Source of the DNA: Escherichia coli
Lineage (GTDB): Bacteria; Pseudomonadota; Gammaproteobacteria; Enterobacterales; Enterobacteriaceae
Reading direction: 5' to 3' (one strand)
DNA: 64,000 bases
Assembly (NCBI RefSeq): GCF_030013205.1
Contig: NZ_CP122648.1
Made by a program: the position numbers and the translations under genes. Below the pieces are notes generated by a model. It saw only the letters and a list, made by a program, of their open reading frames with translations, did not search any database and was not told the origin of the DNA. Below are positions 29,065 to 58,150 of this stretch, in pieces (position 1 is the first letter of the stretch; each line of letters begins with the position of its first letter).

Positions 29065-29091
29065 GCCTTACGCATCTCGAAGCGGGCGTAG

Positions 29092-29165
29092 TTCAATGGT
29101 AGAACGAGAGCTTCCCAAGCTCTATACGAGGGTTCGATTCCCTTCGCCCGCTCCAAACAAACATT
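29092..29165 (+). tRNA. glyU: tRNA-Gly (anticodon CCC)
   Basis: 74-nt cloverleaf GCGGGCG...CGCCCGCUCCA; anticodon stem AGAGC/GCUCU around loop UUCCCAA; T-arm GGUUCGAUUCC. Confidence 0.95.
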
Positions 29166-29319
29166 TCTCAACGTCTACTAAAGTCCATCAAACCCACGAA
29201 TATCAAGCCTTCCAGCCATTTTCATAGTTTATTAACGTCTACTCACAACTACCAGAATCTACACACAGAAGTGTATAGTAATGCGTATAGGACAAAATTT
29301 ATTTTTTGGAGCTATACAC

Positions 29320-30534
29320 ATGCTGCTTTCAGACCTTGCCATCAGGCGCGCGAAGCCGAAAGAAAAGGCTTATACACTCAATGACGGTAACGGGCTTTCG
29401 TTGCTCATTGAGCCGAACGGTTCGAAAGGGTGGCGACTGCGCTACAGGTTTGCAGGAAAGCCCAAAATGTTGTCGTTGGGTGTGTACCCTGATGTGTCTC
29501 TGTCTGATGCCAGGGCGGCAAGGGATGAGGCTAAAAGGCTTCTTGCTGGTGGTATAAATCCAAGTGAGGCCAGAAAAGCCCAAAAGCGAGAACAGGCGAG
29601 CAAATTTGGCAATACTTTTGAGGGTATTGCTCGCGAATGGTACGAAAAGCGGATCGACAGGTGGTCATCGTCATACGCCGAGGAAATGATCGAGACGTTT
29701 GAAAAAGATGTTTTTCCGTACATTGGCGGTAGGCCGATCGCAGAAATTAAGCCGATGGAATTGCTGGCGGTTCTTTCCCGTCTTAATGACCGTGGTGCGA
29801 CTGAAAAATTGCGTAAGGTTCGCCAGCGATGCGGCGAGGTGTTCCGGTACGCAATCATCACCGGACGCGCCGAATATAATCCAGCCCCTGACCTGGTGAG
29901 CGCATTTGCTCCACATAAAAAAGAGCATTACGCCTATTTGAAGGCCGACGAACTGCCGGAATTTTTCCGCGTTTTTAATACGTACACCGGAAGCCAGATC
30001 GTCAAACTGGCAATGCGGCTATTAATTCTGACAGGTGTCAGACCCGGGGAATTACGGCAGGCAGAATGGCAGGAGATCGATTTTGATAATCGTTTGTGGG
30101 AAGTGCCTAAAGAACGAATGAAGATGCGCCGTCCGCATTGTGTGCCATTACCAGAACAGGCGATAAAAATACTGGAGCAGTTAAAAAACATGACAGGCCA
30201 GTATCAGTTTATTTTCCCCGGTCGTATTCGCCACAGTAAGCCAATGAGTGAAATGGCGATGAATGTGCTCATTCGTCGTATCGGCTATGCCGGGCGCGTT
30301 ACTGGTCATGGATTCCGGCACACCATGAGCACCATTTTGCATGAGCAGGGCTATAACACTGCGTGGATAGAAACGCAGCTCGCGCACGTCGATAAAAACT
30401 CAATTCGTGGCACGTACAACCATGCGCAATATCTGGACGGGCGGCGGGAAATGCTTCAGTGGTACGCTGATTATATGGATTCGCTCGAGCATGGCGGAAA
30501 TGTGGTGCATGGTGAGTTCGGAAAATGCGGGTGA
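29320..30534 (+). CDS. int: tyrosine integrase, P4 family
   Basis: ORF track 29281..30534; start taken at MLLSDLAIRRAKPK (29320); catalytic HGFRHT and RGTYNHA motifs. Confidence 0.9.
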   Translation: MLLSDLAIRRAKPKEKAYTLNDGNGLSLLIEPNGSKGWRLRYRFAGKPKMLSLGVYPDVSLSDARAARDEAKRLLAGGINPSEARKAQKREQASKFGNTFEGIAREWYEKRIDRWSSSYAEEMIETFEKDVFPYIGGRPIAEIKPMELLAVLSRLNDRGATEKLRKVRQRCGEVFRYAIITGRAEYNPAPDLVSAFAPHKKEHYAYLKADELPEFFRVFNTYTGSQIVKLAMRLLILTGVRPGELRQAEWQEIDFDNRLWEVPKERMKMRRPHCVPLPEQAIKILEQLKNMTGQYQFIFPGRIRHSKPMSEMAMNVLIRRIGYAGRVTGHGFRHTMSTILHEQGYNTAWIETQLAHVDKNSIRGTYNHAQYLDGRREMLQWYADYMDSLEHGGNVVHGEFGKCG

Positions 30535-30656
30535 CTGGTTGAGTATACAGTAGTAGACTTTGAGCGACGAAAGAAAAGGCTGTGTCTAGGGTCGCTCCCG
30601 AAAATCCGTACACCTCGACGGACTGGTACAGCCACTACAGTAGAGGACGCTGAGGT

Positions 30657-31460
30657 GTGCGTATGATTGATATTCATGCCGAATTAAACGAATACAAAAA
30701 AGATTTTATTTCTTTACGTGAATTTCTTGAGGTCGTGCTTAAGGTCGCTGGTGATGATTATGATGTTTCAGATGTCATAACTTGGATACTCAGGAGAATA
30801 AGCGGAGAACATATCCGCCTGTACACAGTAAATGAATTTAAGCTGTTGGAATCTTTTTGTAACCCGTATCGGGATGAATTTGATAATGATGTTCTTTATA
30901 GAAATCTGAATGCGGTTCGGAAACGTGGTTGTTTACCTGGTGAGAGGGATGAAAATGGTTTTCTGGTGTCCGGTTATTGGGAAGATCCCGAATTTGAGAA
31001 CATTGGATTTATAAGGGGTGAAATTTTCGCAATTTTTCCCGATGTCCTTGACGCGTTAACGAAGCTGGAAGGCGCTAACTCTTCTGAAAATGACGAGGCA
31101 CAAGGACGCGATATTGAAAAGAAAGAGTTGCGTACAGAGGATGATTTATTATCCCAAATCGCAATGCTGGAAAAAGAAAACGCAGAGTTAAGGGCAAGGA
31201 TAGAGCAGTTAGAGCAAGAGCGCCCGATACACTTATATAAATACTGGGATAAAGACCCATTAGCTAAGGCTATTGAGATTAGAAACAGAGAGTGGGCCAA
31301 TTACGATCCAGAAAATGATTTTGCCACCAGGGGAAATCAAGAAGCGATAACCAGGGAGCTTAAGCAGTGGGGGGCAAGTAATGCACTTGCAACGCTCATA
31401 GAGAGGACTGCCTGCCCTATTAACCGAGACAACAGCCAAAAGAACGCAAAGCCGGATTAA
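30657..31460 (+). CDS. hypothetical protein, 267 aa, C-terminal coiled coil; orphan cargo gene between int and alpA
   Basis: Complete ORF; predicted coiled coil (LSQIAMLEKENAELRARIEQLEQE); no catalytic motif recognised. Confidence 0.7.
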   Translation: MRMIDIHAELNEYKKDFISLREFLEVVLKVAGDDYDVSDVITWILRRISGEHIRLYTVNEFKLLESFCNPYRDEFDNDVLYRNLNAVRKRGCLPGERDENGFLVSGYWEDPEFENIGFIRGEIFAIFPDVLDALTKLEGANSSENDEAQGRDIEKKELRTEDDLLSQIAMLEKENAELRARIEQLEQERPIHLYKYWDKDPLAKAIEIRNREWANYDPENDFATRGNQEAITRELKQWGASNALATLIERTACPINRDNSQKNAKPD

Positions 31461-31475
31461 CGCACCATACCGCAT

Positions 31476-31619
31476 ACCCTGAGGGTGATTTACTGTTACC
31501 CTGAGGGTATTTTTTTATCTTCCCCGTCAATTTTACCATCACCCTTAGGGTAGATTTCCTCCCGATTACCATCACCCTTAGGGTAGATTTCCTTCCGGTA
31601 ACCATTAGGCCTGAGGGTA
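31476..31619. repeat. five copies of an imperfect palindrome CCCT-n-AGGGTA upstream of alpA
   Basis: Copies at 31476-31486, 31498-31508, 31541-31552, 31574-31585, 31609-31619; a 25-bp unit ACCATCACCCTTAGGGTAGATTTCC occurs twice. Confidence 0.7.
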
Positions 31620-31687
31620 TGAAAATATTCGTTATTTCTGTGCCATGATTACCTCGTCAAATTGAGTAGACGTTATGAGGTAAATAT

Positions 31688-31885
31688 ATGTCAAATACGC
31701 TTATTCGTTTAACAGAAGTTCAGCGTAGAACTGGATATAGCAAGGCATGGATTTATCGCCTTATGGGGCAAGGTAAATTTCCTGCATCAGTTAAAATTGG
31801 CTCGCGAGCTATTGCTTTCGTTGAGAGTGAAATTGACGAGTGGATTAATCAGCGTATTGCGGAATCACGCGGAACAGCTACCTGA
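31688..31885 (+). CDS. alpA: AlpA-family phage transcriptional regulator (MerR-like HTH)
   Basis: 65-aa ORF; VQRRTGYSKAWIYRLM...FPASVKIGSRAIAFVESEIDEWI is the AlpA signature. Confidence 0.85.
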   Translation: MSNTLIRLTEVQRRTGYSKAWIYRLMGQGKFPASVKIGSRAIAFVESEIDEWINQRIAESRGTAT

Positions 31886-31962
31886 TTAAATGGCTACGGG
31901 GCTATTGCCCCCAGCTATCCACCAGCAAATAAAAGTAACTTAATTCGATAGCAGGAGTTTTT

Positions 31963-32763
31963 ATGAAATTTCCAAAAACGCCCGTACAGGGGCGGGGCTT
32001 CGTTCGGCCTGAAAACCAGAATCTGCAAAATTTCGGCGAAATTATCCCGATTATTTCCGGCGTTATTGGCGGGAGTGAAACCACTATTGTTAGCGCCAGA
32101 GCGTTACATAAGGCGTTAGGTGTAGGGCGCGTTTTCCGTTCGTGGATCAAGGGGCGCATTGAAGAATATGGGTTCACGGAAGGCGTGGATTATAAGGTTG
32201 TTGAATATTTGAGCCGACCCGATCCGGTGAGCGCAAAATCTCGCCAGCAAACCGCTCTTGAGTACATCATCACAGTGAACATGGCGAAAGAACTGGCGAT
32301 GGTCGAACGTACCGAACAGGGCCGCGCCGTTCGCCAGTACTTTATCAAATGCGAGGAGGAGCTACACAAGGTTGCGCCTGTTCGTTCCGCAGCGTTACGC
32401 CGGGAACTGAAAGCCCGTATCACAGTTGCCAGCTACTTTAAGCCAATGTGTGCCGCGCTGGAGGCGTACCGGGCTGAACTGGGTAAAAACACACTCCAGC
32501 ACCACTACACCACGGAAGCGAACATGCTGGCGCGTATCGTGCTGGGTGGCATGACTGCAAAACAGTGGGCACTGGCGAACGGCATTACAGGCGAACCACG
32601 CGACCACATGAGCACGTTGCAGCTTGAGCACCTTTCTTACCTTGAGCAGAGCAATATCACGCTGATTGAGTTAGGCCAGGACTACCACCAGCGGAAGGCT
32701 GAATTAATTCGTCTTTCGCAGCGTTGGTTAGCCCGTCGCATGGAGGAAAACAGCCATGTGTAA
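31963..32763 (+). CDS. phage antirepressor-like protein (Bro-N/AntA-type N-terminus)
   Basis: 266-aa ORF; the N-terminal region resembles phage antirepressor proteins. Confidence 0.6.
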   Translation: MKFPKTPVQGRGFVRPENQNLQNFGEIIPIISGVIGGSETTIVSARALHKALGVGRVFRSWIKGRIEEYGFTEGVDYKVVEYLSRPDPVSAKSRQQTALEYIITVNMAKELAMVERTEQGRAVRQYFIKCEEELHKVAPVRSAALRRELKARITVASYFKPMCAALEAYRAELGKNTLQHHYTTEANMLARIVLGGMTAKQWALANGITGEPRDHMSTLQLEHLSYLEQSNITLIELGQDYHQRKAELIRLSQRWLARRMEENSHV

Positions 32764-33237
32764 CGCTCTGACCGTTACAAAAAGAAAAAGCGCCCCGTTG
32801 CCGGAGCGCCTTTGTGAACGAATAGCCTACTGCGCCATATTGCTTACTGTCTACGAGGCAGATTATAGCGTTGTGGTCGCACAGAGTGAAGGCGCTGATC
32901 ACCGTTACTACAGCACACCAGAAATGCAGAATATTTTGCTGCAAAATGTCGTTGGCCACGCTGTCCGGAAAGCAAAAAATTTTGCTGGTGGCGTGACTGA
33001 TACGATTTTTTCTGGTTGCTCGGTGCTGATCAACTTAACCTGGACTTATGTACAACATTGCAACTATTCCTACTTTAAGCTGAATGTAACTTTACCTATA
33101 TCATTAGAGGTATGGTCGCGCTTGACCTCAATTTCACCATTTTGTAGCCCTGCTACAAAAAAATATAAAAGTGTCAATGTTGCTGCAATCAGTAACCATT
33201 TTCCAAAAATATACATTCTTGATTTTACCCTTAATCG

Positions 33238-33411
33238 TCAACCTTTTGGCACGATGCCTCGCTGTTGTAATTCTTTGCGGAGCACTCGTTTAATCCAGGT
33301 AGCTAATGAGGTGTCGCCGTCTGCTTTGGCTGCCTCCTCAAGTTGTGCCCTAAATTCTTCTGGTAGCCGCATTTGGTATGGTGGCGATCGTTTTTCTAAT
33401 GGTGTTGACAT
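33238..33411 (-). CDS. Arc/MetJ-type ribbon-helix-helix DNA-binding protein (57 aa)
   Basis: Manual translation MSTPLEKRSPPYQMRLPEEFRAQLEEAAKADGDTSLATWIKRVLRKELQQRGIVPKG; below the 60-aa ORF-track cutoff; start abuts a palindromic operator. Confidence 0.6.
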   Translation of the reverse strand: MSTPLEKRSPPYQMRLPEEFRAQLEEAAKADGDTSLATWIKRVLRKELQQRGIVPKG

Positions 33412-33451
33412 GGTAATTACCCATAATTACTATAGTTACACGGTAATTACC
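33412..33451. promoter_or_regulatory. putative operator: two perfect GGTAATTACC palindromes 30 bp apart
   Basis: Palindromes at 33412-33421 and 33442-33451 in the divergent region between the Arc-like gene and the 33548 gene. Confidence 0.55.
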
Positions 33452-33547
33452 ATTGTACTTACCATTGCAAAAAAAACAACGCCCCGGACTGCGGGAACAG
33501 TACCAGGGCGTCTAACCACCAACGATAGCGAAAGTATCGAGGTAGCT

Positions 33548-33751
33548 ATGATAAATCATACCACACACCCGCAAGGGCGGGACTCGCACAACCTGAATAA
33601 ATACATCTGGCGTTTTATCGCCCTGAGCACGGCACAACCGCGCGTGATTCACATCGAGGCCACCAGCGAACAGGAAGCCCGCCAGCAATCTCCTGATGGC
33701 TGCGTGATGGTATTCGCTGCCCGTATTCGCCAGGAGGTACGCCATGATTAA
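33548..33751 (+). CDS. hypothetical small protein (67 aa)
   Basis: ATG at 33548 with a GAGG RBS; 8-nt overlap with the next ORF. Confidence 0.55.
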   Translation: MINHTTHPQGRDSHNLNKYIWRFIALSTAQPRVIHIEATSEQEARQQSPDGCVMVFAARIRQEVRHD

Positions 33752-34109
33752 CCTGTCACTTACCGACCTTCACCGCATTCAGTTTGACGAGAAATTTACC
33801 GGGCAGCTACTGGTCCATGTGGAGAACGGGCGCATAGTGCGTAATTACCACCTGCCGGATGGTGCAATTGCCGGAAGCGTTGAAGCATTGCTGGAAATGG
33901 CAGAACGTGCGCGACTGATTAAGCCGTTAACGTGCCATCACGATGATGATCTGCATTTTACCGGACGCATGGTGAGCCATTATGAAAACGGCGTTGAGGT
34001 ATCCCGCGAACGTCTGCGTGATGATTGCTGTTTCGGCACATTGCCGGAATTTATCGAATTGCTGACCGATTGCGGTTATCAGGTAATTCAGAGCAAGACG
34101 CAGGAGTAA
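33744..34109 (+). CDS. hypothetical protein (121 aa)
   Basis: ORF track; operon context upstream of primase. Confidence 0.6.
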   Translation: MINLSLTDLHRIQFDEKFTGQLLVHVENGRIVRNYHLPDGAIAGSVEALLEMAERARLIKPLTCHHDDDLHFTGRMVSHYENGVEVSRERLRDDCCFGTLPEFIELLTDCGYQVIQSKTQE

Positions 34110-34115
34110 AAAACC

Positions 34116-34406
34116 ATGAAAAAGAAAAATTCTGGCTTTACTGCCAGCGGCCCCGCTCGGCCTGAAATCAAACACGGCGATATTTACCGCGACACCAGAC
34201 GTGGGGGACGAGTGGTTATTCGTCACGTTACGCCAGGCAATATCACCTACCGCCGTGAGGCTTACGAATATGACTGCGTAATGCCGCGCCGTCAGTTTGA
34301 GCGTGATTTTATTCTGGTGGAAAACAAACAACAGGCGGTGGCGAGACGTGCAGCCACGAATATTAAAAAAATCCGGGCAATGTTGGTTGCGGGAGGTAAG
34401 AAGTGA
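34116..34406 (+). CDS. hypothetical protein (96 aa)
   Basis: ORF track; 4-nt overlap with the primase start. Confidence 0.6.
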   Translation: MKKKNSGFTASGPARPEIKHGDIYRDTRRGGRVVIRHVTPGNITYRREAYEYDCVMPRRQFERDFILVENKQQAVARRAATNIKKIRAMLVAGGKK

Positions 34407-36208
34407 AAAACGCCCCGAATTTAAAATATCAGCCGAAGGATAAATTCACTGAGGTAATCATTTTTGCCGGGACGGATGCTTACGCCCATGCTCAACACTG
34501 GATTGAAAGCGAAGGACGAAAACACGGCGATAACGTACCACCTGTTTACCTGGGGCCGAAGCAACTGGCAGACCTGGCGAACATCCGCATTATCGACGAA
34601 GGGCGCCGCTTTGCGCGTGTCTATATCGCAGGGGAGATCGAACCAATTCAGATCAACGCTATCGCCGAAAAGCTGGCACTGGCTGGCGTACAGGAGGCGA
34701 AATTATACAAAGGCATCACCGACCGGGAGCCGGAGAACTGGCGCGATTACCTGCAACGGATCCGCGAACAGGCAGAGCGCGGGGAAGTTTCAGCGATGAA
34801 ATTAGTCACAAAAAATAGTGACCTACCCAGGCCAGCACTAAATCAGATGGGAGCCAGCCAGAGAGGGGAAGTATTGCTTGAATATTATGGAAGGGCACTG
34901 GCTATAAATGACGATTCTGATGTAGTTCACCATTACAACGGAATTGTCTGGGAGCCTGTATCTGATAAGGAACTCCAGCGGTCTATGGCGAAGATTTTTA
35001 TTGATGCTGGAATCAGTTATTCGCAAAACGCCATTAAATTTGCCGTAGACACAATGAAATTGAGCCTGCCTGTTATGGGCGGGGCAGACAGGAATCTTAT
35101 TGGATTCAGTAACGGGGTATTTGATACCCGGACAGGAAATTTTCGGGAGCATAACAAAAATGACTGGTTGTTAAATGCCAGTGAATTACCGTTCAGCCCA
35201 CCAGCAGAGGGGGAAACGCTGGCAACACATGCGCCGAATTTCTGGAAGTGGCTGCGTCGTTCGGTGGCAAATAACGATCGTAAAGCGGATCGCGTACTGG
35301 CGGCATTATTCATGGTACTGGCGAACCGGTACGACTGGCAGTTATTCCTTGAGGTAACGGGGCCGGGCGGAAGCGGTAAAAGTGTGATGGCGGAGATTTG
35401 TACCATGCTGGCGGGTAAGGCCAATACAGTATCGGCGAGCATGAAGGCGCTGGAAGACGCGAGGGAACGAGCGTTAGTGGTGGGATATTCTCTGATTATC
35501 ATGCCTGACATGACCCGCTACGCAGGTGATGGTGCTGGGATTAAGGCCATTACAGGCGGTGACAAGGTGGCAATCGACCCGAAACATAAAGCCCCCTACT
35601 CCACACGTATTCCGGCGGTAGTGCTGGCAGTAAACAATAACGCCATGTCATTCAGTGATCGCAGTGGAGGGATCTCGCGTCGTAGGGTGATATTTAATTT
35701 CTCTGAGGTCGTACCGGAGAACGAACGCGATCCCATGCTGGTGGAAAAAATAGAAGGCGAACTGGCGGTAGTGATTCGCCATTTGCTTACACGATTTGCC
35801 GACCAGGACGAAGCGAAAAGACTACTTTATGAGCAGCAAAAATCAGAAGAAGCACTGTTAATAAAGCGTGAAGGTGATTCGCTGGTGGACTTCTGCGGTT
35901 ATCTGATGTCGTTGGTTAAATGTGAGGGGATGATAGTAGGTAATGCAGAAATAGTGCCATTTAGCCCGAGGCGATATCTGTATCATGCTTATTTGGCTTA
36001 TATGTCTGCGCATGGTCTGGGAAAACCGGTATCACTGACACGCTTTGGTACAGATATGCCAGGGGCAATGGCTGAGTACGGAAAGGAGTACAAGCGGGCT
36101 AAATGCACTAAAGGTCCAGATAAAGGGCGAACGATCACAAATGTTCTGTTAGATAAAGATGCTGATGGATGGTTACCAGCAGCGGCAGGCATTAACGACA
36201 GAACATGA
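34403..36208 (+). CDS. phage/satellite-type DNA primase-helicase (P4 alpha / D5-like)
   Basis: 601-aa ORF; Walker A GPGGSGKS; followed directly by an iteron array. Confidence 0.8.
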   Translation: MKNAPNLKYQPKDKFTEVIIFAGTDAYAHAQHWIESEGRKHGDNVPPVYLGPKQLADLANIRIIDEGRRFARVYIAGEIEPIQINAIAEKLALAGVQEAKLYKGITDREPENWRDYLQRIREQAERGEVSAMKLVTKNSDLPRPALNQMGASQRGEVLLEYYGRALAINDDSDVVHHYNGIVWEPVSDKELQRSMAKIFIDAGISYSQNAIKFAVDTMKLSLPVMGGADRNLIGFSNGVFDTRTGNFREHNKNDWLLNASELPFSPPAEGETLATHAPNFWKWLRRSVANNDRKADRVLAALFMVLANRYDWQLFLEVTGPGGSGKSVMAEICTMLAGKANTVSASMKALEDARERALVVGYSLIIMPDMTRYAGDGAGIKAITGGDKVAIDPKHKAPYSTRIPAVVLAVNNNAMSFSDRSGGISRRRVIFNFSEVVPENERDPMLVEKIEGELAVVIRHLLTRFADQDEAKRLLYEQQKSEEALLIKREGDSLVDFCGYLMSLVKCEGMIVGNAEIVPFSPRRYLYHAYLAYMSAHGLGKPVSLTRFGTDMPGAMAEYGKEYKRAKCTKGPDKGRTITNVLLDKDADGWLPAAAGINDRT

Positions 36209-36236
36209 TACGAAATTTATAAGTTGAAACTTAAAA

Positions 36237-36572
36237 GTAGACGGTTGGTAGACAGATACACTTAACCCTCTACCAACCATCTACTAATTAATGTTTTGAA
36301 TTATATAGGTATTTTTAATGTGGTAGAGAGGTGGGCAGTTATTTCTATATTCCTAAACCACGGGGGGTATATAAAAAAACAGATAGTTAAGGGTTCATTT
36401 TTTAAATTTCTCTTTTAACTGTCTACACTGTCTACCATTTAGTAAAAATCATTAATTATCAATGTATTAATGCGGTAGACAGTTAGTAGACAGTTTGCAG
36501 ATTGTTTTTTTGTTATGAGTTAATAACATTAAATAAATCAATCAATTATATCGGTAGACAGTTGGTAGACAG
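36237..36572. repeat. putative replication origin: paired GGTAGACAG iterons flanking an AT-rich segment
   Basis: GTAGACGGTTGGTAGACAG (36237-36255), inverted copy (36268-36284), TGGTAGAGAGGTGGGCAG (36321-36338), inverted pair (36419-36436), GCGGTAGACAGTTAGTAGACAG (36473-36494), TCGGTAGACAGTTGGTAGACAG (36551-36572). Confidence 0.7.
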
Positions 36573-36580
36573 TTGTAACG

Positions 36581-37123
36581 ATGGGGCAAAGCATGACTAA
36601 GCTGACCATTAACAGAAAACCGAAAGGCATTTATGGCACGCCGCAGAAAACGACGCAGGCGGCACAGGAGCAGGATAAAACCACGTCGGCGCATAAAGTG
36701 ATGCCCGGTAACCAGAAAGCGCAGCAGAAGCCCACAGGGGCGACACCGTGGCGGCATATGACCAAGCGCCAGCGCAAAAACCGCAGGCGCATTAACCGCC
36801 TCACTGAGTTGTGGCCTGAATTATTCAGCCGGGAAGCACCGAAGCCGCTTAAGGTGGGGATATTCGACGACCTGATGCAGGATCTCGCCGTCAGGGGGCT
36901 GGCATTCGGTCCAGGGGCATTGCGTGCGACGCTGGCATCTTATGCACAGTGTCCGCGCTATTACCGCGCCTTAATGGCTGGTGGGGTACGCTACGACCTG
37001 AAAGGCCAGCCGTGCGGCGAGGTGACACCACAGGAACAACAGGACGCAGAAACGCGGCTGGTGGCGCTGAATGAGAAGCGCAAACGTCAGCGCCGGGTAG
37101 CAAAGGAGAAAACAGGCGCATGA
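36581..37123 (+). CDS. ProQ/FinO-domain RNA-binding protein
   Basis: PLKVGIFDDL...LRATLASYAQCPRYYRAL...YDLKGQPCGEV parallels ProQ (PLKIGIFQDL...LRSALRLYTSSWRYL...VDLDGNPCGEL). Confidence 0.75.
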   Translation: MGQSMTKLTINRKPKGIYGTPQKTTQAAQEQDKTTSAHKVMPGNQKAQQKPTGATPWRHMTKRQRKNRRRINRLTELWPELFSREAPKPLKVGIFDDLMQDLAVRGLAFGPGALRATLASYAQCPRYYRALMAGGVRYDLKGQPCGEVTPQEQQDAETRLVALNEKRKRQRRVAKEKTGA

Positions 37124-37407
37124 TTCACGACAGCAAAGCGGAAGCACTGGAAGCGCGTGGTCTGTACCGGAGAGCGGCGGCGCGGTGGGCTGAGGTCATC
37201 ATGCTGGCGAATGATGACAAGGCACGGGAACAGGCGGCAAAACGTCGCGCGGAATGTATCCGCAAGGCAGCACGCCCACCAGCACGGCAGGATAATTTCG
37301 GGGAGATGCGCGAAACCATCAGCCGGGCACATGCCGGGATGGGATTACATCAGCCCAATGGTAAGGCATTCAGGAAATACCCTGGATCGAAAAATTGCAG
37401 TCAGTGA
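37120..37407 (+). CDS. PerC-family transcriptional activator-like protein
   Basis: 95-aa ORF; SKAEALEARGLYRRAAARWAEV matches the PerC-family N-terminal signature; ATGA overlap with the upstream gene. Confidence 0.6.
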   Translation: MIHDSKAEALEARGLYRRAAARWAEVIMLANDDKAREQAAKRRAECIRKAARPPARQDNFGEMRETISRAHAGMGLHQPNGKAFRKYPGSKNCSQ

Positions 37408-37608
37408 CGGAGGCCGGGATTTTTCCCGGCTTTTTTGTGCCAGTAAAAAGCCCGCAGCCAGAAGTGTTGCGGGCTTTGTTTTTCAGGTGATTGAAGTCAA
37501 TGGGAAGAACGCGATCATCATGCGTTATTGTTTCATAAATTGCAATGATGTAGATCGTCATTTCAGTTTGTGCAATCATAATCGTTGTTTTGTTCAGGAG
37601 ATATGACT

Positions 37609-37782
37609 ATGAGAAAAGCCAGCGTGAAACCTGTTTTACTCGCTCGTGATCAGATTGAAGCATTACAGCGCATCCAGGACGAGGAACGCCGCAATTCTCC
37701 GCTGGGGATTGCTCCGAGCATTCATGAGGTCGCCCGGCGTTTAATGCAGCGGGCGCTTTATCCCGTAGAACGTCCGGCCTGA
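37609..37782 (+). CDS. hypothetical small protein (57 aa)
   Basis: ATG at 37609, 9 nt after an AGGAG RBS; ORF track 37585..37782. Confidence 0.45.
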   Translation: MRKASVKPVLLARDQIEALQRIQDEERRNSPLGIAPSIHEVARRLMQRALYPVERPA

Positions 37783-37821
37783 TGGTCGTGATTTTTTGGT
37801 GAAAAAAGAGAGGTGGTAAAA

Positions 37822-38400
37822 ATGCCAGCAAGCAAAGAAGATTTGCGATTAAAACTGATGGAGGTGGTTAACGCTCTGTCAGAGTCGCAGGGCAGCACTC
37901 CGCAGGAGATTATCGAAATTCTGAATGCGATCCCCGCACAGGATTTCATAAAAGAGGATAACGCTAATCAAAACATCGTCGCGTCAGTCGAAGATGAATC
38001 CTCACTGGCAGAAGCCCAGGCCAAAGCGGATTCCGCATACAGCAATATGGGCCGTCGAGCTCCGGCCCCGTTTGCTGGTGAAAAGTCGATGGATTACCGC
38101 AAGCGTGCATTAATTGGCGCACAGAAGCTGGCTAAAAAATTCAGTGATGTGGATATTCGTTCCGTTTCAGATTCTGCAACGCTGGCGGTGCTGGAAGATC
38201 AGATTTACAAGGCTGCTCAGGAAAGTGCTCAGTGGGCCGTGGAAAACACGCCGGGTTATTTGACTAAAAAAGTCAGGATGGATGAAGCCGGGCGCCGGAT
38301 TACTGAATATCAGGGGGATCCGAATAACTGGCTTAGTGCTTTCAAAATCCCTCCCCGTCGCCTGGTCAAAATTAACGTTGCAAGCCTCGCGGGGGCATGA
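37822..38400 (+). CDS. hypothetical protein (192 aa)
   Basis: ORF track 37813..38400; ATG at 37822 follows GAGAGGTGG. Confidence 0.65.
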   Translation: MPASKEDLRLKLMEVVNALSESQGSTPQEIIEILNAIPAQDFIKEDNANQNIVASVEDESSLAEAQAKADSAYSNMGRRAPAPFAGEKSMDYRKRALIGAQKLAKKFSDVDIRSVSDSATLAVLEDQIYKAAQESAQWAVENTPGYLTKKVRMDEAGRRITEYQGDPNNWLSAFKIPPRRLVKINVASLAGA

Positions 38401-38464
38401 AAAACGTGCTGATTTCAGCCCTGCCGGATTTGGCGGGGCTTATTGATTATAACCGGGTGACATT

Positions 38465-39148
38465 ATGCTTTTAACAGAAATTGAGGCGGCAAAGCAGATT
38501 CGGGACGGTCAGCTACCGTCGCCTTATCAGTTCTCCAACATGTGGCTGGTTAACCTGCGTATTACAGGGACTGGCATGGCCTACCGCGCCGAAGAAAAAG
38601 AATTTGTCTGGCGTTCACCGCAAACTTATCTCAATCCGCAGTTCCTGGAACGTTGCGCCGGAGTACCCGTCATTATCGACCATCCCGAAGGCAAAACCAT
38701 TGAAGACGTTGGCGAACGGTCGCGCATTATTGGCACCGTCATGTTGCCGTATATTCGCGGTGACGAGGTGTGGGGTGTATGCCGGATTTACGGGCAGGAA
38801 ATCATCGATTACATCCAGAAAGCACGGGGGGAGGTATCCACCAGCCCGTCGGTTGTGTTTTGTGGTGCGTCCGGTGGGGCAGAAGTTCCTGATGTAATGG
38901 GCGAGGACAATTTTTTCATTGAGGGTACGCCATTTCTTATCGATCACGTTGCGCTCGTACCGTTGGGCGTATGGGATAAGGGCGGGAAACCATCAGGTGT
39001 GGAAGTAACAACGCCGACAGAAGAAGAACAGCTCGCCGGAATGGTCCGTGAAGTTATTGATGCGGCCTGCAAGCCAGCTCTGGAAAAACTGGAAGAAATA
39101 TCCGGGCGGCTGGATCAACTGGAAAAAAACAGAGTGAGTGAATCATGA
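38465..39148 (+). CDS. hypothetical protein (227 aa)
   Basis: ORF track; overlaps the next gene by 4 nt. Confidence 0.65.
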   Translation: MLLTEIEAAKQIRDGQLPSPYQFSNMWLVNLRITGTGMAYRAEEKEFVWRSPQTYLNPQFLERCAGVPVIIDHPEGKTIEDVGERSRIIGTVMLPYIRGDEVWGVCRIYGQEIIDYIQKARGEVSTSPSVVFCGASGGAEVPDVMGEDNFFIEGTPFLIDHVALVPLGVWDKGGKPSGVEVTTPTEEEQLAGMVREVIDAACKPALEKLEEISGRLDQLEKNRVSES

Positions 39149-39762
39149 AAATTGCTAAAAACTTAAATCTGATTATCCCTGTGCGCACTGAAAAGGGTAA
39201 TGGCTGGCTCCATGCCACGCCGATCAGCAAAGAGGTGTTTAAAGAGCATTTCTTCATCCTGAGTAAAACCTTTTCTGCCATTTTTTCTGAAGGTCTTGGT
39301 GTTGTTGCGGGTCCGCGCGTTGCCTGCCTTATGCTGGAGAAAATCTCCCGTGACTCCGGTTTATGGGATGGGGAGAAAGGCATACGTAATACGCTCATAA
39401 ACGAAATTATTCGCCTGGCAAACCTTGTTTATCCAGTGGAGGGCAAAGGCTACGACACAATCCCTCTCGATATGGCGCTGGAGCGTGAAATCGTTGATTT
39501 GGACGAAGTGGCGGGTGAACTTGTTTTTTTTACATGCGTCTCGTCGATAAATTCCCCGGAGCAGACGAAGGGGACTATGGATGCGGTGAATGGAATATGG
39601 AGCACTCAATGCTCGTCCTTGAGTCTTACGGAATGGATCGATTCATTGCCGACATTGAAGCCTGCCGTCAGTTCTGGCGCGACGGCGAACACGTCATCAG
39701 CGACATCCTCGACTACTCAGCCGGAGCCGGATTCAGAGACATCTGTGCAGATTCCGGTCTGA
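39145..39762 (+). CDS. hypothetical protein (205 aa), Ser/Thr-rich C-terminus
   Basis: ORF track; translationally coupled to the upstream gene. Confidence 0.65.
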   Translation: MKIAKNLNLIIPVRTEKGNGWLHATPISKEVFKEHFFILSKTFSAIFSEGLGVVAGPRVACLMLEKISRDSGLWDGEKGIRNTLINEIIRLANLVYPVEGKGYDTIPLDMALEREIVDLDEVAGELVFFTCVSSINSPEQTKGTMDAVNGIWSTQCSSLSLTEWIDSLPTLKPAVSSGATANTSSATSSTTQPEPDSETSVQIPV

Positions 39763-39826
39763 ATGTAAAAACAGCAGCTCAGTTTCGTGAGCTGCTCAAA
39801 TTCAAAAATCCCGCAGGAGTATTGTA

Positions 39827-41866: not shown

Positions 41867-41917
41867 TTTAAATACACGCGCTTTCCGGCGCATTAATACA
41901 GTCTGAGGGGAAGTGTC

Positions 41918-42445
41918 ATGTTTATGAGCAAGGCAGAATATGCCAAACACAAAGGCGTAAGCCGCCAGACAGTTTACGACTGGATCGAGAAAGGCGAAGT
42001 GATCATGTCTGGCAAAAAAATTGATGTGGAAGCGACAGAGCAGCGGAACAGCCCACCAGCACAGGGAAAAGATACCGTTTCTGAAATGTGGCCAGAGAGA
42101 ACGCTGGAAATGACGTGGGGCGAGTTCTGGAAAGCAGTTAAGGCCAGAGACGGTAAAATCCCTGCACCAGTAACGGACAATGACATACAGCAGCGTGTAC
42201 AGGATGCAGCCGGGGAACTATGCTGTGAAGTGCAATTTCTTGATGATGGTGCTATCTGCCTTGAGGATTATGCTGGGCAATATTACTTTGAGCAGTATGA
42301 TTTTCGGGAAAATGCCAGGCTGGCAATTCGTATGCTGCGTTGTGAGCTCTGCTATGTTGCAGGTGATTGTCCCGATGAGCTGGATAACTGGAGTGAAGCC
42401 GGACTAAACGCCCTGGCTGAGTGGGAAAAATCAGGCCATCAATGA
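41918..42445 (+). CDS. HTH protein resembling terminase small subunit Nu1 N-terminus
   Basis: N-terminal KAEYAKHKGVSRQTVYDWIEKGEV resembles the lambda Nu1 winged-HTH region; GAGGGGA RBS; 175 aa. Confidence 0.55.
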   Translation: MFMSKAEYAKHKGVSRQTVYDWIEKGEVIMSGKKIDVEATEQRNSPPAQGKDTVSEMWPERTLEMTWGEFWKAVKARDGKIPAPVTDNDIQQRVQDAAGELCCEVQFLDDGAICLEDYAGQYYFEQYDFRENARLAIRMLRCELCYVAGDCPDELDNWSEAGLNALAEWEKSGHQ

Positions 42446-42451
42446 CCTCAA

Positions 42452-42732
42452 AAAGTGTCAAGTTGAGCAGCTTGCCAGGTTGACACTTTACACTCTGAAC
42501 GCGAAAAAGTGTCAACCTCGCTGTAAGCCCCGCCATTACTGGCCTTTCGCCAGATTTACCACGTCAAAAAGCCGAAAAAATCGCGAAAAGTGTCAAGTTG
42601 CCATGCTTAGAAATGCTAAGGTTTGATAAGGTTTTTCGCGAAAAAGTGTCAAGTGTGTCAACCTGCGATGTTAAGATTTGTTAAGGTCTTAAGCCGGAAA
42701 GTGTCAACCAGCCCCCTAAGATTTCCTAAGGT
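42452..42732. repeat. array of AAAGTGTCAA direct/inverted repeats interleaved with TAAGATTT-nn-TAAGGT motifs
   Basis: AAAGTGTCAA at 42452, 42506, 42587, 42643, 42698; inverted copy 42480-42489; TAAGATTTnnTAAGGT at 42673 and 42717. Confidence 0.75.
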
Positions 42733-42739
42733 GTAAACC

Positions 42740-42919
42740 ATGACCATCACCGAAGCCGATTTGCTGGAGATGATCCGCAGCATTGCCGGAATCAAACAAC
42801 CAGCAAGCAAAATTAACAGGTGTTCAGCGCCTGTTTCCGTTGTGCTGCAGCAGGAACGCCACCAGCATGATGATGTGAGGCCGTATCAGTGGCGGAAACC
42901 GGACAGGCCGCGACGGTGA
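42740..42919 (+). CDS. hypothetical small ORF (59 aa)
   Basis: ATG after an AAGGTG RBS just downstream of the repeat array; below the ORF-track size cutoff. Confidence 0.3.
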   Translation: MTITEADLLEMIRSIAGIKQPASKINRCSAPVSVVLQQERHQHDDVRPYQWRKPDRPRR

Positions 42920-43385
42920 GCGGAACGTTCGGTAAGGCTACAGCCAAGCCAAACATTAAGCCTACGGGTAACCCTTCGAAGGGGCTTTAAAGGGGAGATG
43001 ATTATCCTTACCAGTTGATAAACAAGCAAACCTCAAATTTGAGGTTTGTATCTGCCTGACTTATTTTTGTGCTAAGTTGTTGATATATCCGACGACACAA
43101 ATTTGCGTTCTGTGGCTGGTGGTGGCGAGTTACGACCGATCATTTCCTTCCTGGCAGGTTACATCCTGCTGCTCAACTACTACGGTAGCCACTACGATTA
43201 ACTACGCGATGCCGATATGGGGATTCCCATATCGGTTTATCCGTGATCATCCACCAGCTTGATCACGGTTAACAGGGGATGTGTAATCCCCAAGCGAGTG
43301 ATAAATGTGTATAGAAATGTGTATAGAATTTATTTTAGAACTCGCGAATGCGCCTTTATTACTGGCCTTGTGGCTTGTTGTATTG

Positions 43386-43403
43386 TTCCCTTCGCCCGCT
43401 CCA
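43386..43403 (+). repeat. att direct repeat (18-bp copy of the glyU 3' end) at the island 1 / island 2 junction
   Basis: TTCCCTTCGCCCGCTCCA is identical to tRNA positions 29148-29165. Confidence 0.85.
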
Positions 43404-43900
43404 GAATCTCCCCAGGTGGAGAAGACTAAAAAAGTCTTCTCTGTCAGCAACTTAAACAGTTACCTATTTAATTTGCTTAGGAGTTCTACCATTGTGATCC
43501 GCCCTTAGTAACTGTCACGTTAAGTTACTCGGTGAGATGACAGTATAACCTAACGTTGGCGGCAGTTGCACCTCTCACACCGCGATAGCACAACGTGAAG
43601 ATAAAGCCCATCCTGGCATTGTAATGTCATCGACAGACTGAACACACGCATTTAAGCCCGATGTGCGGCCTTGTGGCTGCGTAAACAGGTTTATGGTGAT
43701 ATTGGTCCTTGCAAACCATATGCAAGCTCTATCAGCGTTTCAGCCACGCTCCCAACGGGTACACGGTTATCCTGATAAGGTGTGATCTTTCTGACAATCT
43801 GATGAAGTCGCTACGCTCCCGCTTGTTGCTGTATCACCAACGGGGCTTTATGGTTTCTATTGTCTATAATAATCTCACAATTCCCCTGCATGAGGTTGAT

Positions 43901-44107
43901 ATGACTGTTAGCTACAAGATTACTTATGAGCATAGAGACGGTGATCAAATTAGAATGGAAGAGGTTTTATTCCATTCAGAGCATGAACCAACAAAAGATG
44001 AAATTCATGATGCAGTAAGAAAAGATACTGTGAGATTTAATTCTCCATCTAATGGAGTAACGGCTGTTTCAGGGTTTAAAGTGATTTCGGTTGTCCCTGT
44101 TCCATGA
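43901..44107 (+). CDS. hypothetical small protein (68 aa)
   Basis: ATG at 43901 after a GAGG RBS; ORF track lists a longer 43709..44107 frame. Confidence 0.5.
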   Translation: MTVSYKITYEHRDGDQIRMEEVLFHSEHEPTKDEIHDAVRKDTVRFNSPSNGVTAVSGFKVISVVPVP

Positions 44108-44140
44108 ATGGTTATAGAAGGGGCTGGAAGCCCCTAATTA

Positions 44141-45665: not shown

Positions 45666-46166
45666 TTTCTTTATTCCTTCTGTGTTGATTTGTGTGTAGT
45701 GATTATTGATCGTGTTGATTAGGTGTGTAAAGGACTTTTTTCACTACGAAATTCGAAGGTTTTTAGTGTGGTGATTTAGCCTGCTTTATCACTACACGTC
45801 TTGCATGAGAATCATGTAGTTACGTTTTGGTAAAATTAGCAAGCTATTAAATAGTGTGTTTATTTTGAAAAAATAATTTTTTGTTGCATTAAAGAAAACT
45901 TGTTCGACAAATAATAGATTGATTTTTAATCAATAATTTCTGATAGTGCTCTGTAAGCCGCATTACACAAGGCTTTGCGAAAGTGATGTAAAAGTGAAGA
46001 AAGTAAGAATTGCACTTTTAAGCTACTTTTCATTGAATTTTTAGTATGGAATTACACAGGGATTAATCATCAATTACATTGAATTTAAGCCTGTTTTAGA
46101 TGTTTAATTTTGGTAGCAAGAAACACTTTTAGAAGATCATTGCACAGATGTTATGTGATAAATGGA

Positions 46167-56821: not shown

Positions 56822-58042
56822 TTACGCCTTAAAATCAATATTTAATTCATATCTTACTAATTCTACATATTCAGCTAATTCTGGAATGCTTGCCCCTTGT
56901 GAGTAGGTGCGAAAGGCTTCTGTTTTGGCTTTTTGCTCAGTGTGGCCCGTAATACTGCCGATCCTGGTCTCGCTAACTCCGGCACGATCAAGACAAGTGA
57001 TAAACATCCCGCGCAAGCTGTGAAAGCATTGTCTATCTGTAGCGATTGGCAAGACGCTACGACGTAAACGTGAGAATGCTTGAGAATAGAACGGGCCTTT
57101 CTTGCCGTCGATTCTTTTTACTTTGTTCGAGTGAGGGAACAAATATTCACCATAATTATGATTTAAATATTCATCGACAATAATCGATAGTCTCGAATGT
57201 ATCGGAACGTGTCTGATCCCTGCTTTAGTCTTACTCTTGCTGATATAAAAACAGCGTATTCCTTCCACAGTTACAACCTCTGACTTTTTCAGGCTTGCCA
57301 GTTCGTCTAATCTGCATCCTGAAAACAAGCCCATTAAAATAATATTTCTGATCTCCGGCTCCGCTGCATCAAGTAGCTTTTGCATTTGTTCAGGTGTAAA
57401 CGGTTGATAACTCTCGATTGTGCGACGTGCTTCGAGGTTATGACCGTGAAAAGGGTTACTGTCTGGTATTCCGTCATAACGGCGTTTAGCAAATTCATAG
57501 AGCGATCCTAAGCATGTAAGCCAGTTTTGACGAGATTGATCGGCTGCTCCTCGTTGCTTCTGGTCATCTAAGAATACTGTTACAAGCCGTCTGCCTATTT
57601 TCTCAATATGAATATCATCTTTCTGAATGCTTTGTAAAAATAGCTCAACGGCCCTTGCTGATTTCTGTAGTGTTGAGTATGAACGACGCTCTCTGTAGCA
57701 TTCGGCGTATTCGTCACGTATTAAGCATAGGGAAGGCGATGCATAACCGCGTTTTACGGCTCTTTGCGTGTTTTTATTGGCCCTTGCCTCTGAATGTAAG
57801 AATTCAATAGCTTTTTGTAACCTCCTTTCGGGGTTATCAGGATTATGTTTCCGCTTTAGTTCCTCCCATTCTAATAACAGATGGTTTCTGAATCTTCTCG
57901 CCTCATTCAGATCTCGTGTAGATGTGCTTTTTCTCCACAACTTGTAAGGGTAAAGATGGCGTAAGTATTTAGGAACAAAAATCTGAAACATCCAGATCCC
58001 ATCTTTTCTCTTAAATAAGTATGCTTGGCTCTTGATCGACAC
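56822..58042 (-). CDS. tyrosine recombinase / phage integrase
   Basis: 406-aa ORF adjacent to att copy 3; C-terminal HSLRG and tyrosine-containing region; different family from the island 1 integrase. Confidence 0.75.
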   Translation of the reverse strand: MSIKSQAYLFKRKDGIWMFQIFVPKYLRHLYPYKLWRKSTSTRDLNEARRFRNHLLLEWEELKRKHNPDNPERRLQKAIEFLHSEARANKNTQRAVKRGYASPSLCLIRDEYAECYRERRSYSTLQKSARAVELFLQSIQKDDIHIEKIGRRLVTVFLDDQKQRGAADQSRQNWLTCLGSLYEFAKRRYDGIPDSNPFHGHNLEARRTIESYQPFTPEQMQKLLDAAEPEIRNIILMGLFSGCRLDELASLKKSEVVTVEGIRCFYISKSKTKAGIRHVPIHSRLSIIVDEYLNHNYGEYLFPHSNKVKRIDGKKGPFYSQAFSRLRRSVLPIATDRQCFHSLRGMFITCLDRAGVSETRIGSITGHTEQKAKTEAFRTYSQGASIPELAEYVELVRYELNIDFKA

Positions 58043-58127
58043 GATAATGATCCTCTATTATCACGTAATCAGTTACCTATGATTGATCACAAAATCTTTA
58101 TTTTACAGCAGGTTATTATGGGTTTCC

Positions 58128-58150
58128 TCGATTCCCTTCGCCCGCTCCAA
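58128..58150 (+). repeat. att direct repeat (23-bp copy of the glyU 3' end) at the distal island boundary
   Basis: TCGATTCCCTTCGCCCGCTCCAA is identical to 29144-29166. Confidence 0.85.

What the first reader, a model, noticed from the sequence alone, without database searches (positions are those of the whole stretch)
29267..29292. GTGTATAG arm-type repeats near both ends of island 1
GAAGTGTATAGTAATGCGTATAGGA beside the int start is mirrored by AATGTGTATAGAAATGTGTATAGAAT at 43304-43330 just inside the right att copy. Paired direct repeats near both att sites are typical arm-type integrase binding sites and independently support the island 1 boundaries. Island 2 shows the analogous pair CAGTTACCTAT at 43457-43467 and 58070-58080.
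Basis: seen in the sequence. Interest (0 to 1): 0.35.

Follow-up and report, generated by a model that had tools for sequence, protein, structure and literature searches.

The report
Integrase arm sites of a P4-like island
The short GTGTATAG repeats at both ends of this E. coli genomic island are almost certainly the accessory ("arm") docking sites of the island's own P4-type integrase, a well-known kind of element found here with a different recognition word from phage P4.

Summary
G(T/C)GTATAG occurs five times in two tight clusters. Two copies lie 59 nt inside the right att copy. The window is an E. coli glyU (tRNA-Gly-CCC) locus carrying two tandem islands.

- Island-1 Int has an N-terminal arm-DNA-binding domain (PF13356).
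- Phage P4 (39% identical Int) has the same layout, annotated in GenBank as "attP arm sequence repeat", but with GGGGGCAT as the word.
- Of 80 homologous loci (55-82% Int identity), 64 have two direct 8-mers exactly 12 bp apart plus an inverted copy near the ATG. About 1% of control windows do.
- The word changes by lineage, and all copies in one element change together, including those at the far end.
- The word class tracks Int N-domain residues, not the rest of Int, the tRNA target or AlpA.
- In ten E. coli attR arms the block is invariant while the flanks diverge.

This is a new specificity class of a known kind. The island-2 pair (CAGTTACCTAT) is real but unresolved.

The parts
29082..29155 (+). 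tRNA-Gly(CCC) gene (glyU), the integration target. Its last 18 nt are the att core.
   Evidence: ARAGORN; annotated tRNA-Gly next to actS in the identical ETEC4079 record.
29138..29155 (.). att core copy 1 (attL of island 1), TTCCCTTCGCCCGCTCCA.
   Evidence: Three exact copies in the window, none expected by chance.
29238..29262 (+). Three (T/A)CTAC direct repeats at 10-bp phasing (29238, 29248, 29258) just upstream of P'1. They are candidate AlpA (directionality factor) sites and/or the -35 region of the int promoter. This is inferred only.
   Evidence: Positions. The ACGTCTAC / AATCTAC blocks are conserved across motif classes. P4 has TCCG three times at 10-bp phasing in the same place (read).
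29271..29278 (+). Arm-type site P'1, GTGTATAG. It contains the -10-like hexamer TATAGT.
   Evidence: invariant in L002-L004 while the flanks diverge; positional homologue of the P4 repeat at 3965-3954.
29283..29290 (+). Arm-type site P'2, GCGTATAG, 12 bp after P'1.
   Evidence: The 12-bp spacing is invariant in 64 of 64 family loci that have the triple.
29312..29319 (-). Arm-type site P'3, an inverted GTGTATAG that abuts the int ATG, between the GGAG ribosome-binding site and the start codon.
   Evidence: An inverted copy lies 0-2 nt from the ATG in 53 of 64 loci. P4 has the same at 3915-3926.
29320..30534 (+). Island-1 integrase (404 aa, P4-type tyrosine recombinase). Residues 3-88 form the arm-DNA-binding domain.
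   Evidence: Pfam PF13356 (E 1.9e-26), PF22022 and PF00589. 39% identical to P4 Int. The N-domain matches PDB 3JU0 and 3JTZ. Model pLDDT 89, with four beta-strands.
31688..31885 (+). AlpA-family protein (65 aa), the probable recombination directionality factor of island 1.
   Evidence: Pfam PF05930, E 2.4e-19. Its sequence does not track the motif class.
43307..43314 (+). Arm-type site P1, GTGTATAG, 79 bp before the core.
   Evidence: invariant in 10 attR arms.
43319..43326 (+). Arm-type site P2, GTGTATAG, 12 bp after P1 and 59 bp before the core.
   Evidence: Lineage-specific pairs sit at the same offset in L015, L031, L050 and L075.
43386..43403 (.). att core copy 2. It is the attR of island 1 and the left junction of island 2.
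43457..43467 (+). Island-2 left copy of CAGTTACCTAT, 53 bp after the core. Function unresolved.
   Evidence: AGTTACCTAT is kept in L086 and L087.
56822..58042 (-). Island-2 integrase (406 aa, DUF6538 N-terminus), unrelated to island-1 Int.
58070..58080 (+). Island-2 right copy of CAGTTACCTAT, in the 89-bp gap between the int2 start and the core. Function unresolved.
   Evidence: There are two substitutions in L086. The equivalent in the 65% relatives L088 and L089 is CAGGTACATCG.
58132..58149 (.). att core copy 3, the right end of island 2. The identity to the tRNA extends to 22 nt here.

Best explanation
The five G(T/C)GTATAG copies are the arm-type binding sites of the island-1 integrase.

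Layout. In the excised circular form the two ends join into one attP of about 280 bp. Reading along it: P1-P2 (two direct copies 12 bp apart), 59 bp, the 18-bp core (the 3' end of tRNA-Gly-CCC), 115 bp, P'1-P'2 (direct, 12 bp apart), 21 bp, P'3 (inverted), then the int ATG.

Mechanism. The integrase is heterobivalent. Its N-terminal beta-sheet domain (residues about 1-90) binds these arm words. Its core-binding and catalytic domains bind and cut within the tRNA-derived core. Bridging of arms and core builds the intasome for integration (attP x glyU) and, with the island's AlpA protein, for excision (attL x attR).

Likely second role. P'1 and P'2 overlap the probable int promoter (TATAGT lies inside P'1), and P'3 sits between the ribosome-binding site and the ATG. 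The same sites therefore probably let Int repress its own gene, as shown for P4 and KplE1.

Shown here: the layout, its conservation, the concerted change of the word in all copies of an element, and the association of the word with the Int N-domain.

Inferred: physical binding by Int, the requirement for recombination, and autoregulation.
For: 1. Int carries Arm-DNA-bind_3 (PF13356) at residues 3-88. This domain matches the solved arm-binding domains in 3JU0 and 3JTZ.
2. P4 has the same map. It has two 12-bp-phased repeats about 75 bp before the core, two more in the int-side arm, and one inverted copy abutting the true ATG. The tRNA end to ATG distance is 163 nt in P4 and 164 nt here. GenBank annotates these as 'attP arm sequence repeat'.
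3. The DR-12 bp-DR-IR triple is present in 64 of 80 homologous loci, against 0.9% of shuffles and 1.3% of other windows. The spacing is 12 in all 64.
4. The word differs by lineage: GTGTATAG, TTGTATAG, GGGGGTA, GGGGGCA, GGGGGCT, GGGGGCC, GGGGGTG. All copies in one element carry the same word.
5. That includes pairs at the far end, 76-79 nt before a fragment of the cognate tRNA, in L015, L031, L050 and L075.
6. N-domain identity to the window Int sorts the word classes, and identity over the rest of the protein does not. L015 (glyU, 77% rest, 58% N) has GGGGGTA. L031 (tRNA-Arg, 63% rest, 72% N) has GTGTATAG.
7. The 15 alignment columns most informative about word class, out of 404, all lie in residues 5-85. 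They fall on the predicted N-terminal helix, the beta-strands and the region after them.
8. AlpA identity does not track the word.
9. In ten E. coli attR arms, 20 of 21 block columns are invariant, against 34 of 135 in the rest of the arm (Fisher p = 6e-10).
10. P4 Int and Vis repress Pint, and PAI I536 IntI, KplE1 IntS and selC-IntL are negatively autoregulated through attL (PMC7286903; PMC2951348).
Against: - No binding or recombination experiment exists for this element or this word.
- The arm sites and the N-domain coding region are contiguous in attP. Co-inheritance by linkage could therefore produce part of the N-domain/word association.
- No sigma-70 consensus promoter was found at 29100-29400, so the overlap with the promoter is not demonstrated.
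- No IHF consensus site was found in either arm.
- 16 of 80 loci failed the strict triple test. Most of them show the repeats displaced further upstream or degenerate.
Confidence: 0.87

Rival explanations
1. The repeats are binding sites of the excisionase/directionality factor (AlpA), not of the integrase.
For: Directionality-factor sites are typically direct repeats about one helical turn apart (abstract of PMC7498355, listed). Island 1 encodes an AlpA homologue. P4 Vis also represses Pint (PMC7286903).
Against: AlpA sequence does not follow the word class. Elements with the GGGGGTA word (L054, L074) have AlpA 82-84% identical to the window's. L004, which has the same GTGTATAG word, has only 66%. 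The sites occur on both arms and in inverted orientation at the ATG. A different, class-independent set of 10-bp-phased repeats, (T/A)CTAC, is a better AlpA candidate.
Confidence: 0.05
2. P'2 and P'3 matter as an RNA hairpin in the int 5' leader that hides the ribosome-binding site and start codon. This would be translational control rather than, or in addition to, DNA binding.
For: The segment 29268-29335 folds at -15.9 kcal/mol (z = -2.35), pairing GUAUAG with CUAUAC. An inverted repeat of 17 nt at 76% complementarity was also found (I1). From memory, P4 int is reported to be regulated post-transcriptionally as well (Piazzolla 2006, not read here).
Against: It cannot explain the P1/P2 pair 14 kb away, or the constant 12-bp phasing of the direct copies. 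The transcription start is unknown and may lie inside or after P'2. Any inverted pair of one word shows apparent covariation, so the alignment cannot tell RNA from DNA.
Confidence: 0.1
3. The repeats are operators of another island-encoded or host regulator that controls int only, and their presence at the right end is incidental.
For: The left cluster overlaps the int 5' region.
Against: The right-end pair is invariant in ten arms whose flanks diverge. It recurs with the lineage word at a fixed offset from the core in unrelated hosts and in P4. Island 1 has no other copy.
Confidence: 0.03
4. Chance similarity or a relic of local duplication, with no function.
For: Each word is only 8 bp long. 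Two more copies lie elsewhere in the window, at 16712 and 63361.
Against: 0 of 100 shuffles reach the count, and 1 of 300 reach the arm statistic. The architecture is conserved in 64 of 80 loci against about 1% of controls.
Confidence: 0.01

Closest known systems
Phage P4 attP arm sequence repeats (GenBank NC_001609 annotation; Pierson & Kahn 1987, cited in PMC7286903)
   Same: The map is the same. Both have two 12-bp-phased direct repeats 75-79 bp before the tRNA-derived core, and two more about 115 bp after it. Both have one inverted copy abutting the int ATG. The tRNA end to ATG distance is 163 nt in P4 and 164 nt here. The integrase is homologous (39% identity) with the same N-terminal domain.
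   Different: The word is GTGTATAG instead of GGGGGCAT. The target is tRNA-Gly(CCC) instead of leuX. The directionality factor is an AlpA-family protein rather than P4 Vis. P4 has a sixth annotated repeat inside int, for which no clear counterpart was found here.
KplE1 (CPS-53) IntS P' arm-type sites overlapping the intS promoter (Panis et al. 2010, PMC2951348)
   Same: The tRNA and int genes have the same orientation, with attL between them. The arm sites lie in the int promoter region, and negative autoregulation has been shown experimentally for that arrangement.
   Different: IntS is more distant: its phage relatives are about 45% identical. Its sites share a TAAA motif. The number and layout of sites differ, and autoregulation has not been tested for this island.
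Lambda Int arm-type sites (P1, P2, P'1-P'3)
   Same: Both use a heterobivalent integrase. Both have two sites in the P arm and three in the P' arm flanking a core, and both need accessory bending proteins and a directionality factor (established knowledge; summarised in PMC2951348).
   Different: The N-domain family differs (PF13356/DUF4102, with an extra strand and helix according to PMC8138268). The spacings differ, the target is a tRNA, and int lies next to attL with its promoter inside att.
Arm-binding domains of the HPI and HAI7 integrases (PDB 3JTZ/3RMP and 3JU0; Szwagierczak et al. 2009)
   Same: The window Int residues 1-90 align to them end to end, with E-values of 1.8e-28 and 7.6e-20.
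   Different: These are structures of the domain alone, from other islands. The paper could not be read here, so their DNA words were not compared.

Membership tests
Arm-type sites of a heterobivalent tyrosine integrase | The cognate integrase has an N-terminal arm-DNA-binding domain. | tested here: met
   PF13356 at residues 3-88, E 1.9e-26; matches PDB 3JU0 and 3JTZ; confident four-strand model.
Arm-type sites of a heterobivalent tyrosine integrase | A repeated word, unrelated to the core sequence, lies on both sides of the core within about 150 bp of it in attP. | tested here: met
   P1 and P2 lie 79 and 67 bp before the core. P'1, P'2 and P'3 start 116, 128 and 157 bp after its last base.
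Arm-type sites of a heterobivalent tyrosine integrase | The sites are conserved among elements using the same integrase while the surrounding arm diverges. | tested here: met
   attL. Ten attR arms: 20 of 21 block columns invariant against 34 of 135 elsewhere, p = 6e-10.
Arm-type sites of a heterobivalent tyrosine integrase | Site sequence changes together with the integrase arm-binding domain. | tested here: met
   Word classes are sorted by N-domain identity, not by the rest of Int. The top 15 informative columns all lie in residues 5-85. Caveat: physical linkage in attP.
Arm-type sites of a heterobivalent tyrosine integrase | Direct binding by the integrase N-domain, and a requirement for recombination. 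| not testable with these tools
   Needs EMSA or footprinting and in vivo excision or integration assays.
P4-type attP architecture | Two 12-bp-phased repeats in each arm, plus an inverted copy at the int ATG, with about 163 nt from the tRNA end to the ATG. | tested here: met
   Window compared with P4. The family-wide distribution of tRNA end to ATG distance peaks at 162-166 nt.
P4-type attP architecture | The same recognition word as P4 (GGGGGCAT). | tested here: not met
   The word here is GTGTATAG. This is a different specificity class within the family.
Directionality-factor (Xis/AlpA) binding sites | The site word follows the directionality-factor sequence. | tested here: not met
   AlpA identity is decoupled from word class.
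Negatively autoregulated int promoter inside attL (KplE1/P4 type) | tRNA and int are co-oriented, with the whole attL arm in the intergenic region. | tested here: met
   A 164-nt gap between the tRNA and int, on the same strand.
Negatively autoregulated int promoter inside attL (KplE1/P4 type) | The promoter hexamers are overlapped by arm sites, and Int represses. | tested here: inconclusive
   No consensus promoter was found by scan. TATAGT inside P'1 is only -10-like. Repression needs a reporter assay.
Island-2 arm-type sites (CAGTTACCTAT) | A word repeated in both arms, conserved and changing in concert in relatives. | tested here: inconclusive
   The exact 11-mer gives 32 of 2000 shuffles. 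The multi-copy statistic is not significant. L086 has two substitutions in one copy only. The far ends of L088 and L089 are not available.

The most novel reading that the evidence does not exclude
P4-type integrases may carry a small, swappable arm-recognition code on a rigid attP scaffold.

- At least eight word classes were seen: GTGTATAG, TTGTATAG, GGGGGTA, GGGGGCA, GGGGGCT, GGGGGCC, GGGGGTG, GGGGTGCA.
- Each class goes with a few beta-sheet residues. Positions 19, 27, 31, 37, 41 and 48 separate TATAG from GGGGG. Position 50 goes with the base after GGGGG: L with TA, R with CA, K with CT or CC, M with TG.
- The classes are shuffled independently of the tRNA target. tRNA-SeC is used with six word classes, and GGGGGTA occurs with seven tRNAs.

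If real, this would keep co-resident or tandem satellites from cross-reacting. It would also give a rule for predicting or re-programming arm specificity.
Probability: 0.5. Interest if true: 0.55.

Novelty: new member of a known kind. Interest (0 to 1): 0.3.

Why it matters
The result fixes the ends and the recombination anatomy of a P4-like satellite at glyU in a pig enterotoxigenic E. coli, independently of the core repeats. It also shows that the middle att copy is a hybrid junction of two islands that use unrelated integrases with different accessory words, so each island should excise on its own.

For annotation, the rule [quoted passage not shown] gives a cheap way to find the far end of such islands.

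The family-wide co-variation of word and N-domain residues is a ready-made data set for studying arm-site specificity.

Tried and rejected
- An exact-match search for a second tRNA tail downstream of int found only 2 loci. The attR cores are degenerate and the flanks were limited to 10 kb. I replaced it with a search for motif pairs and then for the longest shared tRNA word.
- The sigma-70 scan of 29100-29400 found nothing. The IHF consensus WATCARNNNNTTR found nothing in the attL arm and a single one-mismatch hit at the edge of the attR arm.
- A literal literature search for the words returned only unrelated primers and sequences. A search for glyU, integrase and island gave no description of this element.
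- The paper on the HPI and HAI7 arm-binding domains is not held.
- Island 2: IMG/VR gave two 65% relatives, but their far ends lie outside the fetched DNA, so concerted change could not be tested.
- AlpA was considered as the binder and rejected.
- An RNA-hairpin-only reading was rejected because it cannot explain the right-end pair.
- L038, predicted from its N-domain residues E29 and R50 to be GGGGGCA class, shows only a decayed GGGGGCAC...GGGCACAT pair in a disrupted locus. This is consistent but weak.

Full report
**What the window is.** The region is an E. coli chromosome. It is 100% identical to pig ETEC strain ETEC4079 at the actS-glyU locus. tRNA-Gly(CCC) lies at 29082-29155. Its last 18 nt, TTCCCTTCGCCCGCTCCA, recur exactly at 43386 and 58132. 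Two islands therefore sit in tandem.

- Island 1 (29156-43403) starts with an integrase gene on the + strand (29320-30534). It carries an AlpA-family gene (31688-31885), an Icd-like gene, a P4-alpha-like primase, ProQ/FinO and PerC genes. This is a P4-like or PICI-like satellite gene set.
- Island 2 (43404-58149) ends with an integrase on the - strand (58042-56822). That integrase has a DUF6538 N-terminus and is unrelated to the first one.

**The observation.** Both strings are present, with coordinates off by one.

- GTGTATAG occurs 6 times in the window against 1.03 expected; 0 of 100 shuffles reach that count.
- With the GCGTATAG variant, five of eight sites fall in two clusters: 29271(+), 29283(+), 29312(-), and 43307(+), 43319(+).
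- In both clusters the direct copies are exactly 12 bp apart.
It lies between the GGAG ribosome-binding site and the int ATG at 29320.
- An unbiased scan for the best 8-mer family shared by the two arms returns GTGTATAG. One of 300 shuffles does as well.

**The integrase can bind arm sites.** Island-1 Int has the Arm-DNA-bind_3 domain (PF13356) at residues 3-88, followed by the central and catalytic domains. Residues 1-90 align end to end with the solved arm-binding domains of the HAI7 and HPI/CP4-like integrases, 3JU0 and 3JTZ. A model built on 78 homologues is confident (pLDDT 89). It shows a short helix, four beta-strands (18-21, 26-30, 36-44, 47-56) and two helices.

**Phage P4 has the same map.** P4 Int is 39% identical. 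The P4 GenBank record annotates six "attP arm sequence repeats".

- Two adjacent 12-mers (GGGGGCAC / GGGGGCAT) lie about 75 bp before the core.
- Two more (GGGGGCAT twice) lie in the int-side arm.
- One inverted copy abuts the ATG that aligns with the family start (MKLNARQ...).
- One lies inside int.
- The distance from the tRNA-derived core end to the ATG is 163 nt in P4 and 164 nt here.

The window repeats are therefore positional homologues of the P4 arm repeats, with a different word.

**Family-wide test.** A scan of one genome per species returned 80 loci with Int homologues of 55-82% identity, from Enterobacterales.

- In 64 of 80 loci, the 110 nt upstream of int contain two 8-mers 12 bp apart plus an inverted copy. 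The rate is 0.9% in shuffles and 1.3% in other windows of the same loci.
- The spacing is 12 in all 64. The inverted copy is 0-2 nt from the ATG in 53.
- The word differs by lineage: GTGTATAG, TTGTATAG, GGGGGTA, GGGGGCA, GGGGGCT, GGGGGCC, GGGGGTG. Within one element all copies carry the same word.
- Where the far end lies inside the fetched DNA, a pair of the lineage word, again 12 bp apart, sits 76-79 nt before a 10-15-nt fragment of the cognate tRNA. This holds for L015 (Y. pestis, glyU, GGGGGTA), L031 (tRNA-Arg, GTGTATAG), L050 (tRNA-Arg, GGGGGTA) and L075 (tRNA-SeC, GGGGGCAT).
- L016 has a TTGTATAG pair at +10.2 kb, but its tRNA could not be called.

**Which protein reads the word.**

- Ranking the homologues by identity of residues 1-90 to the window Int separates the TATAG-type from the GGGGG-type elements (64% or more against 62% or less). 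Identity over the rest of the protein does not separate them.
- L015 shares the glyU target and 77% of the rest, but only 58% of the N-domain, and has GGGGGTA. L031 targets tRNA-Arg and shares 63% of the rest but 72% of the N-domain, and has GTGTATAG.
- Of 404 alignment columns, the 15 most informative about word class all lie in residues 5-85. Six are perfect discriminators: T19/K, S27/Y, E31, G37/Y, R41/K, P48/E. They fall on the predicted N-terminal helix, the beta-strands and the region after them.
- Within the GGGGG group, residue 50 goes with the following bases: L with TA, R with CA, K with CT or CC, M with TG.
- Word class and tRNA target are shuffled relative to each other.
- AlpA identity is unrelated to the word. 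GGGGGTA elements have AlpA 82-84% identical to the window's, while L004, with the same word, has 66%.
- Caveat: in attP the arm sites and the N-domain codons are contiguous, so linkage contributes to the association. What linkage cannot explain is that five separate copies carry one word and change together.

- The integrase is present at 80% coverage or more in 78-86 of 5426 complete genomes. The attR arm is present in 79.
- In attL alignments the block AATCTACACACAGAAGTGTATAGTAATGCGTATAGGACAAAAT is invariant, even in L004, whose flanks differ.
- In ten attR arms with 71% mean column identity, 20 of 21 columns of TGTGTATAGAAATGTGTATAG are invariant, against 34 of 135 in the rest of the arm (p = 6e-10).

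**How it most likely works.** Int bridges the arm words (through its N-domain) and the core (through its core-binding and catalytic domains) to assemble the intasome. Integration joins attP to the glyU 3' end. Excision recombines attL and attR with AlpA.

The int-side sites probably also act as operators.

- TATAGT lies inside P'1 and P'3 abuts the ATG.
- Negative autoregulation through attL has been shown for P4 Int (and Vis), PAI I536 IntI, KplE1 IntS and selC-IntL (PMC7286903; PMC2951348).
- This step is inferred here. No consensus promoter or IHF site was found.
- P'2 and P'3 can also pair as an RNA hairpin (-15.9 kcal/mol, z = -2.35). That could add translational control but cannot explain the right-end pair.

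**Island 2.** One copy starts 54 bp after the middle core and the other starts 62 bp before the right core.

- A shared 11-mer arises in 1.6% of shuffles. The multi-copy statistic is not significant.
- In relatives with 87% and 75% identical integrase DNA, the left copy is kept. The right copy has two substitutions in one of them.
- In 65% relatives the right copy reads CAGGTACATCG, and their far ends were not recoverable.
- The analogy is possible but not established.

**Verdict.** This is a new specificity class (GTGTATAG) of the long-known P4-type arm repeats, so it is ordinary in kind. The family-wide word/N-domain co-variation on a rigid scaffold is the most interesting by-product. I found no description of it in the papers searched, but that search was limited.

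Noticed in passing
window 29138-58149; L088 200-490; L089 9700-10000: Two islands with unrelated integrases (PF13356-type and DUF6538-type) use the same glyU core in tandem. In two IMG/VR contigs the order is reversed: an island-2-type int is followed by a roughly 55-nt tRNA-Gly fragment and then an island-1-type P' arm carrying GTGTATAGTAATGCGTATAG.
   Followed up: partly
window 29164-29179 and 29228-29243; 29238-29262: ACGTCTAC occurs twice, 64 bp apart, in the int-side arm. Both copies are conserved across the family whatever the arm word or tRNA target. Next to the second copy, (T/A)CTAC recurs three times at 10-bp phasing. P4 has TCCG three times at 10-bp phasing at the same place. These are candidate AlpA/Vis sites or promoter elements.
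   Followed up: partly
attR cores in L003, L004, L106, L108, L109 (alignment A5): Five of ten E. coli attR cores bordering the chromosome carry a 1-nt deletion (TTCCCTTCG-CCGCTCCA). The window's three cores are intact. This may mean that many of these islands can no longer excise precisely.
   Followed up: no
window 43290-43300 and 43327-43345 (alignment A5): Besides the motif pair, TCAAGCG upstream and AT(T/C)nATTTT(A/G)(G/C)AA downstream are conserved in attR arms whose other sequence diverges. A(T)TTATTTT also follows P'2 on the left arm. They may be accessory-protein or bending sites. No IHF consensus was found.
   Followed up: partly
L085 (phage P4) 3912-3926: The P4 RefSeq int CDS starts at an upstream ATG that lies inside the inverted arm repeat. 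Alignment with about 80 homologues supports the second ATG (3914) as the family start.
   Followed up: partly
L030 about +216 from the int ATG; window 29369-29378: Extra word-like copies occur inside int coding sequence. In L030, GGGGTATCGCTGGGGGTATCG encodes the conserved AGGI motif. In the window there is an inverted AGTGTATAAG at +50. P4 also has an annotated repeat inside int. Whether these are used is unknown.
   Followed up: no
window 43404-58149: Island 2 encodes a major capsid protein, a 'baseplate' protein, a small serine recombinase and an IS3 insertion, with its integrase pointing inward from the right end. It looks like a capsid-encoding satellite or a prophage remnant, and the same type sits directly at glyU in many E. 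coli genomes.
   Followed up: no
L033 4700-4804: Budvicia aquatica carries yet another word class (TGTTGGTA / TGATGGTA, with an inverted TACCAACA) and a distinct N-domain signature (H27, H31, Q41, Q48).
   Followed up: no
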